A stretch of 6,482 bases of DNA. Origin: a virus (lineage: Duplodnaviria; Heunggongvirae; Uroviricota; Caudoviricetes). The stretch covers positions 1 through 6,482 of IMG/VR virus record IMGVR_UViG_2548876940_000005, one strand, 5' to 3'. Under the pieces are notes generated by a model. The model searched no databases. It was not told the DNA's origin and worked only from the letters and a program-made list of their open reading frames with translations. Positions 303-4,756 of this stretch are shown here, piece after piece. Positions within the stretch are counted from its first letter, which is position 1; the number at the start of each line of letters is the position of its first letter. A program made the position numbers and the translations under genes.

Positions 303-631
303 CAGTTCACCACCTGCTTAAACTCGGCACTGAATTCAACCCGCAGCATGCGAACCCGTGATGACCAGGCGGCACAGGTCACCTTTATCTGCCGCCAGGC
401 ATAAGGCGGTGTCCACAGAAACGCCTTCCAGCCACCGTGCTCTGCCAGGAATGCCTCCAGATGTCGGGCCTCCTCCCGGGTCACGGAAAGCGTCACACGG
501 TATGTTTTCAGGTCAGCATTCAGCCCCGCCGCCATACGCTGCGAATACCCGTCACCAAAACGCACTTCACGCACCGATGGCTGCGAGTTCACCTCCATAT
601 CCGGCTTCACTTTCCAGCGAAAGGTTTTCAT
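302..631 (-). CDS. M: Minor tail protein M
   Basis: 109-aa ORF (MKTFRWKVKPDMEVNSQPSVREVRFGDGYSQR...RVEFSAEFKQVVN), the same length as lambda gpM and near-colinear with it from memory. Its ATG (631..629) overlaps the H stop (630..628) as ATGA, as in lambda. Synteny H-M-L. Confidence 0.93.
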   Translation of the reverse strand: MKTFRWKVKPDMEVNSQPSVREVRFGDGYSQRMAAGLNADLKTYRVTLSVTREEARHLEAFLAEHGGWKAFLWTPPYAWRQIKVTCAAWSSRVRMLRVEFSAEFKQVVN

Positions 632-3138
632 CGCCTGCCTCCGGAAAAGACGCCGCCATCACGCATCTGCGCCTGAATCTCATCCTGCGCCCCCTTGCGG
701 GCCATGTCATACACCGCCTTCATCAGCTGCGGCCCCGCCTGTCCGTTGGAGCCGTCGTTCTGAATCACCACGTGATTGTTCTGATTAAAATTAATGCCTT
801 CCGTCCGCCGCATCTGCGCCGGACTTCCGGCACCGCCCACATAACCACCTTCCGCATACCCGCGCATCAGACGATACAGGTTGCCGACGCCAATCCGGCT
901 GGTTGCCTCCTTCGTGAAGACAAACTCACCACGGTGAACAATCCCCGCAGGCTCGTATTTGCCGCCAGTACCTGTAAAACCACCACCGGCAAACCCAATG
1001 GCACTACCGATACTCCCGACAATCCCCACCATCGCCTGCTTCAGAAAAATCTCTGTCAGCATGGAGAGCACCGAACGGGTGAAACCACGCCAGTTCTGTT
1101 CGCTGCCGGTCAGCATCGCTGCCATATTCTGTGCAATACCGTCAAAGGTCTGCGTGGCCACGCTTTTAACCTGCGAAAAACTGTCCATGACACTTTCCGC
1201 CCACTCCCCCCAGCCGGATTTCAGCCCGGCCATCCAGCTTCCACGAAGCTGCTCCTCCGCAGACCAGGTGTTCTTCAGTGCAGATGTGGCCTTCGCCAGC
1301 GCAGCCGGATTATCACCGTACACGTCACGAAGGCGCTGCTCTTCCGACTCCCGCTGCGCCTGACGGTCGGTGAGTCCGCGGGCTTTTGCGCTGATTGCCG
1401 CCTGCTTCGCACTCTGCTGCTGTTCAAACCGCGCAGCCTGCTGTGCCAGCTCATTCAGCCGTTTCTGGTGTTCAACTTTGTCTCCCAGCTCAGCCAGCTG
1501 GCGTTTGTACTCCAGCGTCTCTTTCTCATGGGTCAGCAGGGATTTTTCCTGCTCAGATAACTGCCGTTTCGTGGCTGCCTCTTTCAGGACCGCATACTGA
1601 TTTTCCGCTTTCCATAAATCGCGACGCTGCTGGCTGATTTTCTCATTCGCACCGCTGTGTTTTTCCAGCGTCCGGAGCTCGGTTTCAAGCGCCAGCAGGG
1701 CAGCATGCGCCTGGTCTTCCTGACGCTCACCGGCTGACACTTTGACTCCTGACGACTTCGGCTTTTTCAGCGTCGATTCATAATCCTTTTTCGCCGCCGC
1801 CATCAGCGTGTTGTAATCCGCCTGCAGGATTTTCCCGTCTTTCAGGGCCTTATTCAGTTCTTCCTGACGGGCGGTATATTTCTCCAGCGGCGTCAGCAGA
1901 CGCTCATACGCCTTCTGCGCCTCTCCGGTATACTTCAGCTGTGATGCGTCCCGTTCGGCCCGGTCCCTGGCGGCCAGTTCACCGGCTTTTTCCATATCCG
2001 ACTGCAGCGTGGCCGCTGCCAGCCCCAGACGGGCATTTTCCCGGTCATTCCATGCGCCCTGAAGGTTGGCCCGGAAAGAGGCGGTTTTTCCCCGGCGCTG
2101 GCTCCGGCTCTGGTACCACTGCCATTTTTTATCCGCCTCATCAAATGCCTTCTGTGCACTGGCGAGCATATCCGCTGAGGACTCAGGACGACCGATATCC
2201 AGAATGGCATCCCACATCGATTTGAATGCCTTCCCTGTTTTATCCGCCCAGGTCTCCAGTGTTCCCATGTTTTCTTTCAGGCGACGGGTCTGCTCATCAA
2301 AGCCTTTCGTGGCGATATCGTTCGCCGCCTGCAATGCCCCGGCCTCGTCTCCGGAACGCTGCAGCTGTGCAACATACGCAATCTGCTCTGCCGTCACGTT
2401 ACGGAACTGGCGCGCCATCGCCATCAGTCCCGACGTCGGGTCGGTAGTCAGTTTTCCGAAAGCCTCTGCAACCTTGTCCACCTCCACACCGGATGCAGAA
2501 GCAAAACGCGCGACACTCTGGTTGATGGCATCAAACTGTTCACCACCACGCACACCGGCATTCACCAGGGCTGCCAGTGACTCACTCGCCTGGTTAAACG
2601 TCAGCCCTGCGGCCTGTCCGGCTCTGGAGAGCGTCAGCATGCGATCGGCAGTCAGTCCGGACTGATTACCGGAAAGAACCAGGGTTTTATTAAACGCTGA
2701 AAGCGTGGAATCCCCCTGGTACCAGGCGTACGCCAGCGCACCTGTCGCCACCGCCAGCGAGGTGACCCCGACCATCGGCAGGGTGATCGCACCGGCAAGT
2801 CCCCTGAACATGGGGATCATCCCGCCGAAGGAGTCCTTCACCTGACCGCCCTGTTGCAGCAGGATCAGCCAGGGATTCTGACCACCGGCAAGCTGCGTGG
2901 CGATATCCGTAAACTGTGCGGGCAGGGTTCGCATGGCCGCTTTATACTGCCCGACGGAAATCCCGGCTTTTTGTGCAGCCAGCGCCTGACGACTCAGGTT
3001 CTGCTCAACAACACCGGCGGTTTTTCTGGCGTCAGTCTCCAGTCCGGAAAAATGACGCCTTACCCGGCTCATCTGCTCATCGAAACGGACCGCATCCAGA
3101 CTCAGGTCAATAACAAGATCACCAACCGGCTGGGACAT
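628..3138 (-). CDS. H: Tail tape measure protein H
   Basis: 836-aa ORF. The N-terminus (MSQPVGDLVIDLSLDAVRFDEQMSRVRRHFSG...) and C-terminus (...NNHVVIQNDGSNGQAGPQLMKAVYDMARKGAQDEIQAQMRDGGVFSGG) align with lambda gpH as recalled. It has a long Q/A/E/K/R-rich helical middle typical of tape measure proteins, and hydrophobic segments at about aa 112-140 and 689-720. A GGAGGTG Shine-Dalgarno lies upstream of the ATG at 3138. Position between G-T and M. Confidence 0.95.
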   Translation of the reverse strand: MSQPVGDLVIDLSLDAVRFDEQMSRVRRHFSGLETDARKTAGVVEQNLSRQALAAQKAGISVGQYKAAMRTLPAQFTDIATQLAGGQNPWLILLQQGGQVKDSFGGMIPMFRGLAGAITLPMVGVTSLAVATGALAYAWYQGDSTLSAFNKTLVLSGNQSGLTADRMLTLSRAGQAAGLTFNQASESLAALVNAGVRGGEQFDAINQSVARFASASGVEVDKVAEAFGKLTTDPTSGLMAMARQFRNVTAEQIAYVAQLQRSGDEAGALQAANDIATKGFDEQTRRLKENMGTLETWADKTGKAFKSMWDAILDIGRPESSADMLASAQKAFDEADKKWQWYQSRSQRRGKTASFRANLQGAWNDRENARLGLAAATLQSDMEKAGELAARDRAERDASQLKYTGEAQKAYERLLTPLEKYTARQEELNKALKDGKILQADYNTLMAAAKKDYESTLKKPKSSGVKVSAGERQEDQAHAALLALETELRTLEKHSGANEKISQQRRDLWKAENQYAVLKEAATKRQLSEQEKSLLTHEKETLEYKRQLAELGDKVEHQKRLNELAQQAARFEQQQSAKQAAISAKARGLTDRQAQRESEEQRLRDVYGDNPAALAKATSALKNTWSAEEQLRGSWMAGLKSGWGEWAESVMDSFSQVKSVATQTFDGIAQNMAAMLTGSEQNWRGFTRSVLSMLTEIFLKQAMVGIVGSIGSAIGFAGGGFTGTGGKYEPAGIVHRGEFVFTKEATSRIGVGNLYRLMRGYAEGGYVGGAGSPAQMRRTEGINFNQNNHVVIQNDGSNGQAGPQLMKAVYDMARKGAQDEIQAQMRDGGVFSGGRR

Positions 3139-3990
3139 ATCTCACACCTCCGGAAATCCCCGCTGAAGCCATCATTAATGCGACATCATCCTCGCTGACA
3201 TCCGCCACATCCGCAGACGATAAAATCTCACGCCCTCCGTCCCCACCAAACCGGACGCCTCCGGCAAGTCCTGCCGCTTTCTGCATCAGCATTTTTTCCT
3301 CATCCGGCATCTCCGTCTGCGCTTCCTCACGCCGGGGGGCAAGCAGACTGAAATCAGAGGGATGCATATCCGGATCGCAAAAAAACAGGCTGAGTACGGC
3401 GTACGTCAGCCCGGAAAAATGCATATCCAGTTGGGTATCGAGAAAATAATGCGTACGGTAAAAATGTCGCCAGTCGGCATATTCGGTGGATGTCATCCCG
3501 GCAAGCATGGCGCGCCAGTCAGGCCTCCCCATCTCACGCGCCAGTCTGAGGGCAAAATTCAGCTCGCCGTCGAAGACTTTCCCGCAGAAAAATCATCATC
3601 AGTCAGCGCGTTATTTTTCGCCACTTCGGTGCTGTCAGTATCCGCATGAACAGCCCCGCTCATCCCGGACAGACGCAACACCACATCTTCCGCCCGGGCA
3701 ATGGCATCCGCAGGCCAGGTGGTGAGCACCTCCTGTTCGATCTGCATCACAGCCTCATTCATTGACGGTGATGCCGTTTTCTGCGGATGGTTATGCCACA
3801 GGGACATCGCCACCAGAAACGCGCCGGTTCTGACGAGATCTTCCACGCTTACCTGCAGGTTGCCGCTGGATTCTGCCTGTTCTGCACGCCGTTTCAGGAG
3901 GGCAAGATGCTCAATACGCTGCAGCGCAGACAATTCGGAAAGCGTGACGGACACACCGTTATATTCAAATTGTTCTGTTTTCAGAAACAT
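3119..3990 (-). CDS. T: Tail assembly chaperone G-T fusion, made by programmed -1 ribosomal frameshift (G frame 3990..3577, then T frame 3577..3119)
   Basis: The T-frame ORF is in the -1 frame relative to G and is open from the slippery site down to the TGA at 3121..3119. T-frame translation from the slip site reads GKVFDGELNFALRLAREMGRPDWRAMLAGMTSTEYADW..., which matches the lambda gpGT junction and gpT sequence as recalled. There is no convincing independent RBS for the internal Met at 3532. Predicted fusion is about 290 aa. Confidence 0.82.
3559..3990 (-). CDS. G: Tail assembly chaperone G
   Basis: 143-aa ORF (MFLKTEQFEYNGVSVTLSELSALQRIEHLALLKRRAEQAE...SAGKSSTAS), near-colinear with lambda gpG from memory. 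GGAGGT Shine-Dalgarno 7 nt upstream of the ATG at 3990. It contains the GGGAAAG slippery heptamer near its 3' end. Position between V and H. Confidence 0.92.
   Translation of the reverse strand: MFLKTEQFEYNGVSVTLSELSALQRIEHLALLKRRAEQAESSGNLQVSVEDLVRTGAFLVAMSLWHNHPQKTASPSMNEAVMQIEQEVLTTWPADAIARAEDVVLRLSGMSGAVHADTDSTEVAKNNALTDDDFSAGKSSTAS
3577..3583 (-). other. Slippery heptanucleotide G GGA AAG (programmed -1 frameshift signal for G-T)
   Basis: Plus-strand 3577..3583 is ctttccc, so the minus strand reads GGGAAAG. In the G frame the codons are GCG GGA AAG (A-G-K of ...FSAGKSSTAS), which is the X XXY YYZ arrangement of the lambda G-T slip site. The -1 frame is open into T. Confidence 0.85.
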
Positions 3991-4003
3991 GTATTACCTC
4001 CGT

Positions 4004-4756
4004 TTACCCTGCAGCGCCCGCTTCAGTAACGGTGACTTCAGCCACTGCGGCGAACTGACCATTTCCGCTCACCACAGGGATCTGCACCTTACCTGTCGCC
4101 ACGCCGTTTACCGTAATTGTCATATCTTTCACACTAATGGTGGCTTTCGACGGATCGGCGGAAACCGCTCTGAACGTCTTGTCGGTTGCACTTTCCGGCT
4201 CAAAAGAAACCGTCAGGGTGGTTGTTTTCCCTTTTGCCACCGTACCGGATGTCGGCGTCACCTTAATCGCACTGACCGGCGTAATTTTGCTGCGTTCTTC
4301 CGCTACAGAAGGTTTACCCACGTTAGTGACTTTCACCGTGCGGGTGATCACTTCTTTCGCCGTCACGGCCTTACCGATACTGCTGACCCAGCCACGAAAC
4401 ACATCCACCGTGCCATTCGGAAAACGGATTTTATAGGCCCGGACATCGCCGCTTTCAAACCAGCCTATAAGCCCTTTCTGGCCTTCCTCTCCCGGTTTCC
4501 AGGCCAGCGTAAAACTGGTATCACCTGCAGATTTCTGCCCCTGCCCGGTCGCGGTCCAGTCCGCGTCTTCATCATCCAGGTAGTTATCATCGTAGGATTC
4601 TGCCGTCATCTCGCCCGGCGTCAGATCCTTCACCTTAGCCAGTCGCTGCCAGTCATCGTCTGACAACGGGTTTGCATAAGCATCACCCTTGCCGTTGTAA
4701 ACCCACAGAGTGGTACCGGCACCTTTTACCGGCTCAAGGGGATTTGGTGTTGCCAT
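4004..4756 (-). CDS. V: Major tail (tube) protein V
   Basis: 250-aa ORF ([49 protein letters not shown]...), highly similar to lambda gpV across the N-terminal tube domain from memory. The C-terminal ~90 aa look like an Ig-like (Big_2-type) domain, as in lambda gpV. A GAGGA Shine-Dalgarno overlaps the U stop. Position between U and G. Confidence 0.95.

What the first reader, a model, noticed from the sequence alone, without database searches (positions are those of the whole stretch)
3119..3990. Conserved lambda-type G / G-T programmed -1 frameshift
The heptamer GGGAAAG sits near the 3' end of G (3583..3577, minus strand) in exactly the G GGA AAG register, and the -1 frame is open from there for 152 codons to a TGA at 3121..3119. 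The product would be a G-T fusion of about 290 aa whose junction (..SAGK / VFDGELNFALRLAREMGRPDWRAMLAG..) matches the lambda gpGT junction as recalled. In lambda the frameshift sets a fixed G:GT ratio needed for tail assembly, so T should not be annotated as an independent gene starting at the internal Met at 3532.
Basis: partly seen in the sequence, partly recalled or inferred. Interest (0 to 1): 0.35.

Follow-up and report, generated by a model that had tools for sequence, protein, structure and literature searches.

The report
Lambda-type G/GT tail-chaperone frameshift site
This is the textbook programmed -1 ribosomal frameshift of phage lambda's tail-assembly genes G and T, intact in a lambda-like E. 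coli prophage; it is real, but it is ordinary and already well described.

Summary
On the minus strand, GGGAAAG lies at 3583..3577 in the G GGA AAG register, 7 codons before the stop of G (3990..3559). The -1 frame is open from there for 152 codons to the TGA at 3121..3119. The result is a 290-aa G-T fusion, 70% identical to lambda gpGT, with the junction SAGK|VFDGEL unchanged.

The genes lie between the major tail gene V and the tape-measure gene H, as in lambda. They meet the curated G and T family models.

Comparative evidence is strong. All 79 close loci keep GGGAAAG. All 28 diverse Enterobacterales genomic loci, and phages N15, phi80, mEp460, Gifsy-2 and VT1-Sakai, keep a shifty ...A AAG heptamer 2 to 7 codons before the G stop.

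Codon-position variability follows the -1 frame from the slip site onward. The internal Met at 3532 is Phe or Leu in 16 of 20 relatives and has the weakest Shine-Dalgarno match of 8 starts in the window. So T is not a separately initiated gene, although RefSeq annotates it that way.

A downstream RNA stimulator is not established.

Verdict: already known biology, and a valid point about annotation. Low interest.

The parts
3559..3990 (-). Gene G, the tail assembly chaperone and zero-frame product: 143 aa, 15.5 kDa, stop TGA 3561..3559
   Evidence: ORF. PF06894 at 1.4e-50. TIGR01674 at 163.9 bits against a cut-off of 74.45. Mass.
3996..4001 (-). Shine-Dalgarno GGAGGT of G, ending 5 nt before ATG 3990
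   Evidence: Sequence. Hybrid with the anti-SD is -10.8 kcal/mol.
3577..3583 (-). Slippery heptamer G GGA AAG, where tRNA-Gly and tRNA-Lys re-pair on GGG AAA
   Evidence: Identical to the lambda site (PMC3296357 Table 1). Kept in 79 of 79 close loci. Kept, or replaced by G GAA AAG or A AAA AAG, in all distant relatives examined.
3119..3577 (-). T segment in the -1 frame: 152 codons plus the TGA at 3121..3119. Translated only as the C-terminal half of the GT fusion.
   Evidence: PF06223. TIGR01715 at 199.1 bits, aligned from fusion residue 143, which is 11 residues upstream of the internal Met. Codon-position entropy of 0.63/0.45/1.11 in the -1 frame between the slip site and the ATG equivalent.
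3119..3990 (-). Complete G-T fusion coding region: 138 zero-frame codons plus 152 codons in the -1 frame, giving 290 aa and 32.0 kDa
   Evidence: PHROG 32165 (profile length 290) matches G at positions 1-142 and the T frame at 140-290.
3530..3532 (-). Internal ATG (fusion residue M154), used as the T start in RefSeq annotation. Probably not a real initiation site.
   Evidence: Annotation. Weakest SD of 8 starts at -2.3 kcal/mol. Phe in 15 and Leu in 1 of 20 relatives.
3499..3569 (-). Predicted but unproven RNA structure. The outer helix 3569-3562 with 3506-3499 starts 7 nt after the heptamer. It encloses the inner GC-rich hairpin 3543-3508.
   Evidence: MFE -42.7 kcal/mol, z = -2.3 against dinucleotide shuffles, but z = -1.4 against a synonymous-codon null. 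81% of cells paired in 20 relatives. No RNAalifold consensus on those 20.
3119..3138 (-). 20-nt overlap between the end of T and the start of tape-measure gene H (ATG 3138..3136, with its own strong SD)
   Evidence: SD hybrid -10.8 kcal/mol.

Best explanation
The window carries, on its minus strand, the tail module of a lambda-like E. coli prophage: FI, FII, Z, U, V, G, T, H, M. G and T are expressed as in lambda.

Most ribosomes that start at ATG 3990 stop at TGA 3561..3559 and make the 143-aa chaperone gpG. A small fraction slip back one base when tRNA-Gly and tRNA-Lys occupy GGA AAG (3582..3577), and re-pair on GGG AAA. In lambda this fraction is about 3-4%. These ribosomes read GTC at 3577 as the next codon and continue for 152 codons to TGA 3121..3119. 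The product is the 290-aa fusion gpGT.

The G part, present in both proteins, binds the tape-measure protein H. The T part recruits the major tail protein V. The slip frequency fixes the G:GT ratio needed for correct tail assembly.

Shown here: the sequence anatomy, the homology, conservation of the slip site, purifying selection in the -1 frame directly after the site, and the absence of an independent start.

Inferred from lambda: that the shift actually happens, how often it happens, and what the two proteins do.
For: - Anatomy: heptamer, register, distance to the stop and the 152-codon -1 ORF.
- The -1 frame is closed by three stops 4 codons upstream of the heptamer.
- Synteny: V (PF16461) - G (PF06894) - T (PF06223) - H (PF06791, PF09718).
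- NCBIfam equivalogs for G and T, both well above their cut-offs.
- 70% identity to lambda gpGT, with an identical SAGK|VFDGEL junction and an identical TTTCTGCGGGAAAGT core. The roughly 20 codons of G just upstream of that core are unalignable between the two phages.
- Conservation: 79 of 79 close loci carry GGGAAAG, 7 codons before the stop. All 28 diverse genomic loci from about ten Enterobacterales genera, and N15, phi80, Flotzy, mEp460 and Gifsy-2, carry G GGA AAG or G GAA AAG. VT1-Sakai carries A AAA AAG. Each site lies 2-7 codons before the stop and is followed by a T homologue in the -1 frame. AAAG is invariant in a 7-phage alignment whose upstream columns are nearly random.
- N15's depositors annotated the equivalent heptamer as the slippery sequence. 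Gifsy-2's depositors call their T the frameshift hybrid.
- Selection: between the slip site and the ATG equivalent, column entropy by -1-frame codon position is 0.63/0.45/1.11, the same pattern as further into T (0.58/0.27/1.18).
- No independent start: the internal Met is Phe or Leu in 16 of 20 relatives, and its SD hybrid of -2.3 kcal/mol is the weakest of 8 starts.
- Literature: PMC3296357 names the lambda slippery sequence GGGAAAG and gives about 96% zero frame. PMC5009743 gives the 30:1 ratio, describes the G-H and T-V binding model, and states that G_GGA_AAG and A_AAG are highly shift-prone in E. coli. PMC7618472 gives G_GGA_AAG.
Against: There is no direct evidence of expression for this allele. 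The exact 290-aa fusion is absent from a 15-billion-protein collection, because annotation pipelines split it into two genes.

The shift efficiency here is unknown. The nucleotide two positions after the heptamer differs from lambda (GTC against GTG).

No canonical stimulator could be established.

Whether the host prophage is still inducible cannot be judged from 6.5 kb.
Confidence: 0.93

Rival explanations
1. T is a separate gene, initiated at the internal ATG 3532 either directly or by re-initiation after the G stop 26 nt upstream. It gives a free 137-aa T protein, as RefSeq annotates, and the heptamer is incidental.
For: - PGAP annotates exactly this in the closest E. coli genomes.
- The 137-aa sequence is recorded on about 1000 contigs under the name 'phage tail assembly protein T'.
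- The ATG lies close enough to the G stop for termination-reinitiation to be conceivable.
Against: - The ATG has the weakest anti-SD match of the 8 starts in the window: -2.3 against -10.8 kcal/mol for G and H.
- The Met is Phe or Leu in 16 of 20 relatives, and no other start is conserved.
- The 15 codons upstream of it are conserved as protein, show -1-frame codon periodicity, and are covered by the T equivalog profile from fusion residue 143.
- The heptamer is conserved in every relative examined.
Confidence: 0.03
2. The shift into the T frame is made by RNA polymerase slippage on the A run, giving an mRNA with one base more or less. It is not made by the ribosome.
For: The heptamer contains a short homopolymer (AAA), and VT1-Sakai has AAAAAA at the same place. 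Transcriptional slippage is a known alternative route to fusion proteins (PMC5009743).
Against: From general knowledge, three As are far shorter than the runs of about 6-9 or more that productive transcriptional slippage needs. The conserved feature across relatives is the tRNA re-pairing pattern X XXY YYZ / A AAG in a fixed register, not the length of the run. In lambda, changing the tRNA-Lys modification changes the G:GT ratio, which points to the ribosome (PMC3296357).
Confidence: 0.01
3. The signal is an intact but idle relic. The window belongs to a cryptic or defective prophage whose tail genes are no longer expressed, so the frameshift has no present function in this genome.
For: E. coli genomes hold a median of 2 and up to 14 copies of related modules, and many lambdoid prophages are defective (general knowledge). 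H has a 23-aa deletion relative to its closest relative.
Against: All nine reading frames in the window are intact and match their family profiles full-length. The substitution pattern among relatives shows continued purifying selection. Near-identical modules sit in inducible Stx2a-converting phages.
Confidence: 0.08

Closest known systems
Bacteriophage lambda G / G-T programmed -1 frameshift (Levin, Hendrix & Casjens 1993; Xu, Hendrix & Duda 2004, 2013, 2014, as cited in PMC5009743 and PMC7618472)
   Same: Same heptamer G GGA AAG, same register, same 7-codon distance to the G stop, same junction peptide SAGK|VFDGEL, same V-G-T-H gene order, and 70% protein identity over the fusion.
   Different: - The fusion is 290 aa against 279 aa in lambda.
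- The last ~20 residues of G before the conserved SAGK are unrelated in sequence.
- The codon after the heptamer is GTC here and GTG in lambda. The GTG that lambda's GenBank record uses as a nominal 'T start' therefore does not exist here.
- The T/H overlap is 20 nt here and 8 nt in lambda.
N15 gp14/gp15 and the phi80, mEp460 and Gifsy-2 G/T pairs (lambdoid relatives)
   Same: Homologous G and T, with a -1 shift at the equivalent position just before the G stop. The site is annotated as a slippery sequence in N15 and as a frameshift hybrid in Gifsy-2.
   Different: These phages use G GAA AAG, where only the A-site tRNA-Lys re-pairs perfectly. In mEp460 and Gifsy-2 the G stop comes 2 codons after the GAA codon rather than 7. 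They have Phe where the window has the internal Met.
E. coli dnaX A AAA AAG -1 frameshift
   Same: The same A-site A AAG slip on the single E. coli tRNA-Lys. VT1-Sakai's G/T even uses the identical heptamer A AAA AAG (PMC5009743).
   Different: From general knowledge, dnaX reaches about 50% efficiency with an upstream SD-like element and a strong downstream hairpin. Here there is no SD-like element within 20 nt upstream and no established downstream structure. That fits a low-efficiency shift.

Membership tests
Lambda-type gpG/gpGT tail assembly chaperone with programmed -1 frameshift | Two overlapping ORFs lying between the major tail (tube) protein gene and the tape-measure gene | tested here: met
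   The order is V (PF16461, 4004-4756), G (3559-3990), T frame (3119-3577), H (PF06791 and PF09718, 628-3138).
Lambda-type gpG/gpGT tail assembly chaperone with programmed -1 frameshift | The upstream ORF is homologous to lambda gpG | tested here: met
   PF06894 at 1.4e-50. TIGR01674 equivalog at 163.9 bits against a cut-off of 74.45. 68.8% identity to lambda G by tblastn.
Lambda-type gpG/gpGT tail assembly chaperone with programmed -1 frameshift | The downstream ORF, in the -1 frame, is homologous to lambda T | tested here: met
   PF06223 at 47.6 bits against a cut-off of 25.9. TIGR01715 equivalog at 199.1 bits against a cut-off of 77.35. PHROG 39 and the fused-protein PHROG 32165 also match.
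Lambda-type gpG/gpGT tail assembly chaperone with programmed -1 frameshift | A slippery heptamer X XXY YYZ, in the zero-frame register, within the G/T overlap near the 3' end of G | tested here: met
   G GGA AAG at 3583..3577, 7 codons before the stop. It is the only heptamer in the window followed by a long -1 ORF.
Lambda-type gpG/gpGT tail assembly chaperone with programmed -1 frameshift | The -1 ORF has no start or ribosome-binding site of its own, and is conserved as protein right from the slip site | tested here: met
   Stops close the frame 4 codons upstream of the heptamer. The first ATG is 15 codons downstream, with an SD hybrid of -2.3 kcal/mol. That Met is not conserved. Codon periodicity follows the -1 frame upstream of it.
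Lambda-type gpG/gpGT tail assembly chaperone with programmed -1 frameshift | The slip site is conserved in position among homologues | tested here: met
   79 of 79 close loci. 28 of 28 genomic loci in other species. Seven named phages.
Lambda-type gpG/gpGT tail assembly chaperone with programmed -1 frameshift | The fusion protein is produced at a few percent of G. Both proteins are needed for tail assembly and both are absent from virions. | not testable with these tools
   Known for lambda only (PMC5009743, PMC3296357). For this allele it needs a western blot, mass spectrometry or genetics.
Stimulated -1 PRF signals (dnaX / IS element / retroviral type) | A stable stem-loop or pseudoknot about 5-9 nt 3' of the heptamer, supported by covariation | tested here: inconclusive
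   A predicted two-helix structure starts 7 nt downstream, with z = -2.3 against dinucleotide shuffles and 81% of cells paired in 20 relatives, against 21-49% in the slid controls. Against that, z is only -1.4 under a synonymous-codon null, RNAalifold finds no consensus on the 20 sequences, and the structure is absent in the Phytobacter, Xenorhabdus and Serratia relatives.
Stimulated -1 PRF signals (dnaX / IS element / retroviral type) | An upstream internal Shine-Dalgarno-like stimulator about 10-14 nt 5' of the heptamer | tested here: not met
   The 20 nt upstream read CTGATGATGATTTTTCTGC. They contain no GGAG or AGGA motif, and the stretch is not conserved among relatives.

The most novel reading that the evidence does not exclude
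In the lambda, N15 and phi80 branches of this family, a two-helix RNA structure tunes the low frameshift efficiency. In the window its outer helix is 3569-3562 with 3506-3499 and starts 7 nt after the heptamer, and it encloses the GC-rich hairpin 3543-3508. The structure would be maintained by covariation between a Gly/Ser codon and the third position of an Ala codon 66 nt downstream: GC in 5, AU in 8, CG in 2 and GU in 2 of 20 sequences. The lambda G-T shift is usually described as needing only the slippery sequence, so a conserved stimulator would be a small addition to a classic system.
Probability: 0.15. Interest if true: 0.3.

Novelty: already known. Interest (0 to 1): 0.08.

Why it matters
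Biologically this adds nothing new. The G/GT frameshift is one of the classic recoding events, and it is known to be conserved across long-tailed phages.

The practical value lies in annotation. For this very common E. coli prophage allele, public records hold G and an ATG-started 137-aa 'T' on about 1000 contigs each (the tool stops counting at 1000). The true 290-aa GT product is absent from a 15-billion-protein collection. Proteomic searches, structure predictions and defence-system studies that sense phage tail chaperones would therefore miss the real protein. It should be annotated as a joined CDS with ribosomal slippage at 3577..3583.

Tried and rejected
- **Downstream RNA stimulator.** A single-sequence fold gave z = -2.3, and a 7-sequence alifold gave a plausible structure. 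With 20 diverse sequences RNAalifold found nothing. Against a null that keeps the protein sequence, the window's fold is not unusual: z = -1.4, with 7.7% of nulls as stable. Pair counts on the imposed structure look good, but that structure was derived from these same sequences. I left it as unproven.
- **Rfam.** A scan of the whole window found no family at the gathering threshold.
- **PDB.** A sequence search with the fusion found no solved relative at E <= 0.01.
- **Xu et al. 2013.** I tried to read it (PMC3762263), but it is not held. Levin et al. 1993 is not in the library either. What those papers say about downstream sequences could therefore not be checked and is not used.
- **First locus search.** The first related-loci run returned only relatives 92-100% identical. 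Diversity had to come from tblastn against phage records and from a profile scan of one genome per species.
- **Transcriptional slippage and independent initiation of T.** Both were considered and rejected; see the rival explanations.
Full report
**What is in the window**

All long ORFs with family support lie on the minus strand. They follow the order of the lambda tail module: FI (cut by the window end), FII, Z, U, V, G, T, H, M. Each matches the corresponding Pfam family.

The window is 98.6% identical over its full length to prophages in E. coli O55:H7 and related strains. The G-T region is about 98% identical to Stx2a-converting phages. Lambda itself has the same gene order.

**Checking the observation**

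The minus strand reads ...GAT TTT TCT GCG GGA AAG TCT TCG ACG GCG AGC TGA in the frame set by ATG 3990.

- GGGAAAG occupies 3583..3577, and GGA and AAG are zero-frame codons.
- The G stop is TGA 3561..3559, 7 codons after GGA.
- Read from 3577, the -1 frame gives VFDGELNFALRLAREMGRPDW... and stays open for 152 codons to TGA 3121..3119.
- Upstream of the heptamer the -1 frame reads ...*RAD***FFCGK, so it is closed four codons before the site.
- The fusion is 290 aa.

**Is it more than chance?**

- The eight genes contain only 4 in-frame X XXY YYZ heptamers in 1914 codons. Codon shuffles give 6.9 +/- 2.6.
- The other three heptamers are followed by -1 runs of 4, 13 and 17 codons.
- None of 1749 positions in the other genes has a -1 run of 152 codons or more (median 9, maximum 147).
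- A heptamer in the last 15 codons of G appears in 2.85% of codon shuffles.

**Comparison with lambda**

Lambda's GGGAAAG lies at NC_001416 10109-10115, also 7 codons before the G stop. It is the experimentally defined slippery sequence (PMC3296357 Table 1; PMC7618472).

The two GT fusions are 70% identical over 291 aligned columns, and the junction SAGK|VFDGEL is identical. At the DNA level the core TTTCTGCGGGAAAGT is identical, while the roughly 20 codons of G just upstream of that core are essentially unalignable.

Between the heptamer and the G stop the two phages differ at two bases, GTC/GTG and GGC/GGT. Both changes are synonymous in the -1 frame and non-synonymous in the G frame (S to C, A to V). 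This can be read directly.

**Wider conservation**

- All 79 close loci, including lambda and the closest E. coli prophage, carry GGGAAAG 7 codons before the stop.
- Among phages whose G is 30-48% identical, VT1-Sakai has A AAA AAG at the same place. N15, phi80, Flotzy, mEp460 and Gifsy-2 have G GAA AAG. In each, the T homologue continues in the -1 frame.
- N15's depositors annotated that heptamer as the slippery sequence. Gifsy-2's depositors describe T as part of a frameshift hybrid.
- A scan of one genome per species gave 28 further loci, in Escherichia albertii, Trabulsiella, Superficieibacter, Pluralibacter, Enterobacter, Atlantibacter, Pseudocitrobacter, Phytobacter, Xenorhabdus, Symbiopectobacterium and Serratia. 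All have G GGA AAG or G GAA AAG 2 to 7 codons before the stop, and a -1 ORF of 79-152 codons beginning (V/A)(F/L)...LAREF.
- In a 7-phage DNA alignment AAAG is invariant, although the upstream columns are nearly random.

The A AAG core is the known shift-prone tetranucleotide for E. coli's single tRNA-Lys. G_GGA_AAG is listed among the most shift-prone heptamers in E. coli (PMC5009743).

**Is T a separate gene?**

RefSeq annotates T as a 137-aa CDS starting at the ATG that corresponds to window 3532. That exact sequence is on about 1000 contigs, while the 290-aa fusion is absent from the collection. Four lines of evidence argue against independent initiation:

1. The Met is present in only 4 of 20 diverse sequences. 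It is Phe in 15 and Leu in 1.
2. The 14 codons between the slip site and the ATG equivalent have per-position entropies of 0.63/0.45/1.11 in the -1 frame. That is the same pattern as in the next 17 codons, 0.58/0.27/1.18.
3. The curated T equivalog TIGR01715 aligns from fusion residue 143, 11 residues before the Met at 154.
4. The ATG has the weakest anti-SD complementarity of the 8 starts tested, -2.3 kcal/mol. G and H each have -10.8.

PHROG 32165, a profile of length 290, matches G at positions 1-142 and the T frame at 140-290. Fused GT proteins of this subtype are therefore already deposited for some phages.

**Mechanism**

By homology with lambda, most ribosomes terminate at the G stop. 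A few percent slip -1 on G GGA AAG and make gpGT. The shared G domain binds the tape-measure protein, the T domain recruits the major tail protein, and a G:GT ratio of about 30:1 is required for tail assembly. Neither protein is in the virion (PMC5009743; PMC3296357 gives about 96% zero frame).

The anatomy, conservation and selection are shown here. The occurrence of the shift, its rate and the protein functions are inferred from lambda.

**Stimulatory elements**

There is no SD-like motif within 20 nt upstream of the heptamer.

Downstream, the window folds into an outer helix (3569-3562 with 3506-3499) that starts 7 nt after the heptamer and encloses a GC-rich hairpin (3543-3508). The evidence is mixed:

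- MFE is -42.7 kcal/mol, z = -2.3 against dinucleotide shuffles.
- A 7-sequence alifold supported the structure.
- On 20 sequences the imposed structure has 81% of cells paired, against 21-49% for the slid controls. There is some double-sided change, for example at pair 16-84: AU 8, GC 5, CG 2, GU 2.
- RNAalifold on the same 20 sequences finds no consensus.
- Against a null that keeps the protein sequence and resamples synonymous codons, the window gives only z = -1.4 and lambda -1.7.
- Under the same null, N15, phi80, Trabulsiella and Pluralibacter give -2.3 to -2.7 and Gifsy-2 gives -3.8.
- Phytobacter, Xenorhabdus and Serratia show nothing under that null (for all three points).

I treat this as an unproven, clade-limited possibility.

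**Verdict**

The finding is real and correctly interpreted, but it is the classic lambda G/GT recoding site in a common E. coli prophage. Its only practical consequence is that T should be annotated as part of a joined CDS.

Noticed in passing
window 628-3138 (minus), about residue 715 of H: The tape-measure protein H is 836 aa here and 859 aa in the closest E. coli prophage. The difference is a single 23-aa gap in the Gly/Ala-rich stretch after the hydrophobic segment (GSAMGGAFGGGASASTGTAIQAAAANFHFATGG becomes GSAIGFAGGG); the rest is about 99% identical. Tape-measure length sets tail length, but this stretch lies in the C-terminal part, so the effect is unknown.
   Followed up: partly
loci L092-L104, L106-L108, L114, L115; MW057783.1: Short or roughly 1x-coverage contigs carry a G identical, or nearly so, to lambda's. 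They sit in assemblies labelled Neobacillus, Oceanobacillus, Kitasatospora, Shewanella, Pseudomonas, Paenibacillus, Bradyrhizobium, Enterococcus and others. A 48,361-bp record called 'Campylobacter phage CJLB-4' has lambda-like G at lambda-like coordinates. These look like lambda DNA contamination or mislabelling, not real host range.
   Followed up: no
window 3119-3990 (minus): The exact G (143 aa) and the ATG-started T (137 aa) are each on about 1000 public contigs (the tool counts only up to 1000). The exact 290-aa GT fusion is absent from a 15-billion-protein collection. The real product is systematically missing from protein databases for this allele.
   Followed up: yes
window 3584-3650 (minus), the C-terminal tail of G: The last ~20 residues of G before the SAGK junction are hypervariable in sequence and length between relatives, and acidic or low-complexity. 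Conservation resumes abruptly about 9 nt before the heptamer. This could be a flexible linker, a mosaic recombination boundary, or both.
   Followed up: partly
L084 868-885 and L085 861-884, compared with window 3991-4003: N15 and mEp460 have an annotated rho-independent terminator between the major tail gene and G. The window has a 13-nt V-G spacer and lambda a 15-nt one, neither with room for a terminator. The relative dosage of V and G must therefore be set differently in the two groups.
   Followed up: no
window 358-1560 (+) and 3701-4663 (+): There are long ORFs of 400 and 320 aa antisense to H and to V/G. Their translations look Arg-, Pro- and Ser-rich and of low complexity. They were not searched against any family library and were taken as by-products of the codon bias of the sense genes.
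   Followed up: no
window 4004-4756 (minus), residues 161-241 of V: The major tail protein carries a C-terminal Big_2 Ig-like domain at 2.9e-18, as lambda gpV does. One member of the G protein cluster in the public collection is named 'Ig-like domain-containing protein, partial'. That name probably comes from a mis-called ORF running from V into G.
   Followed up: no
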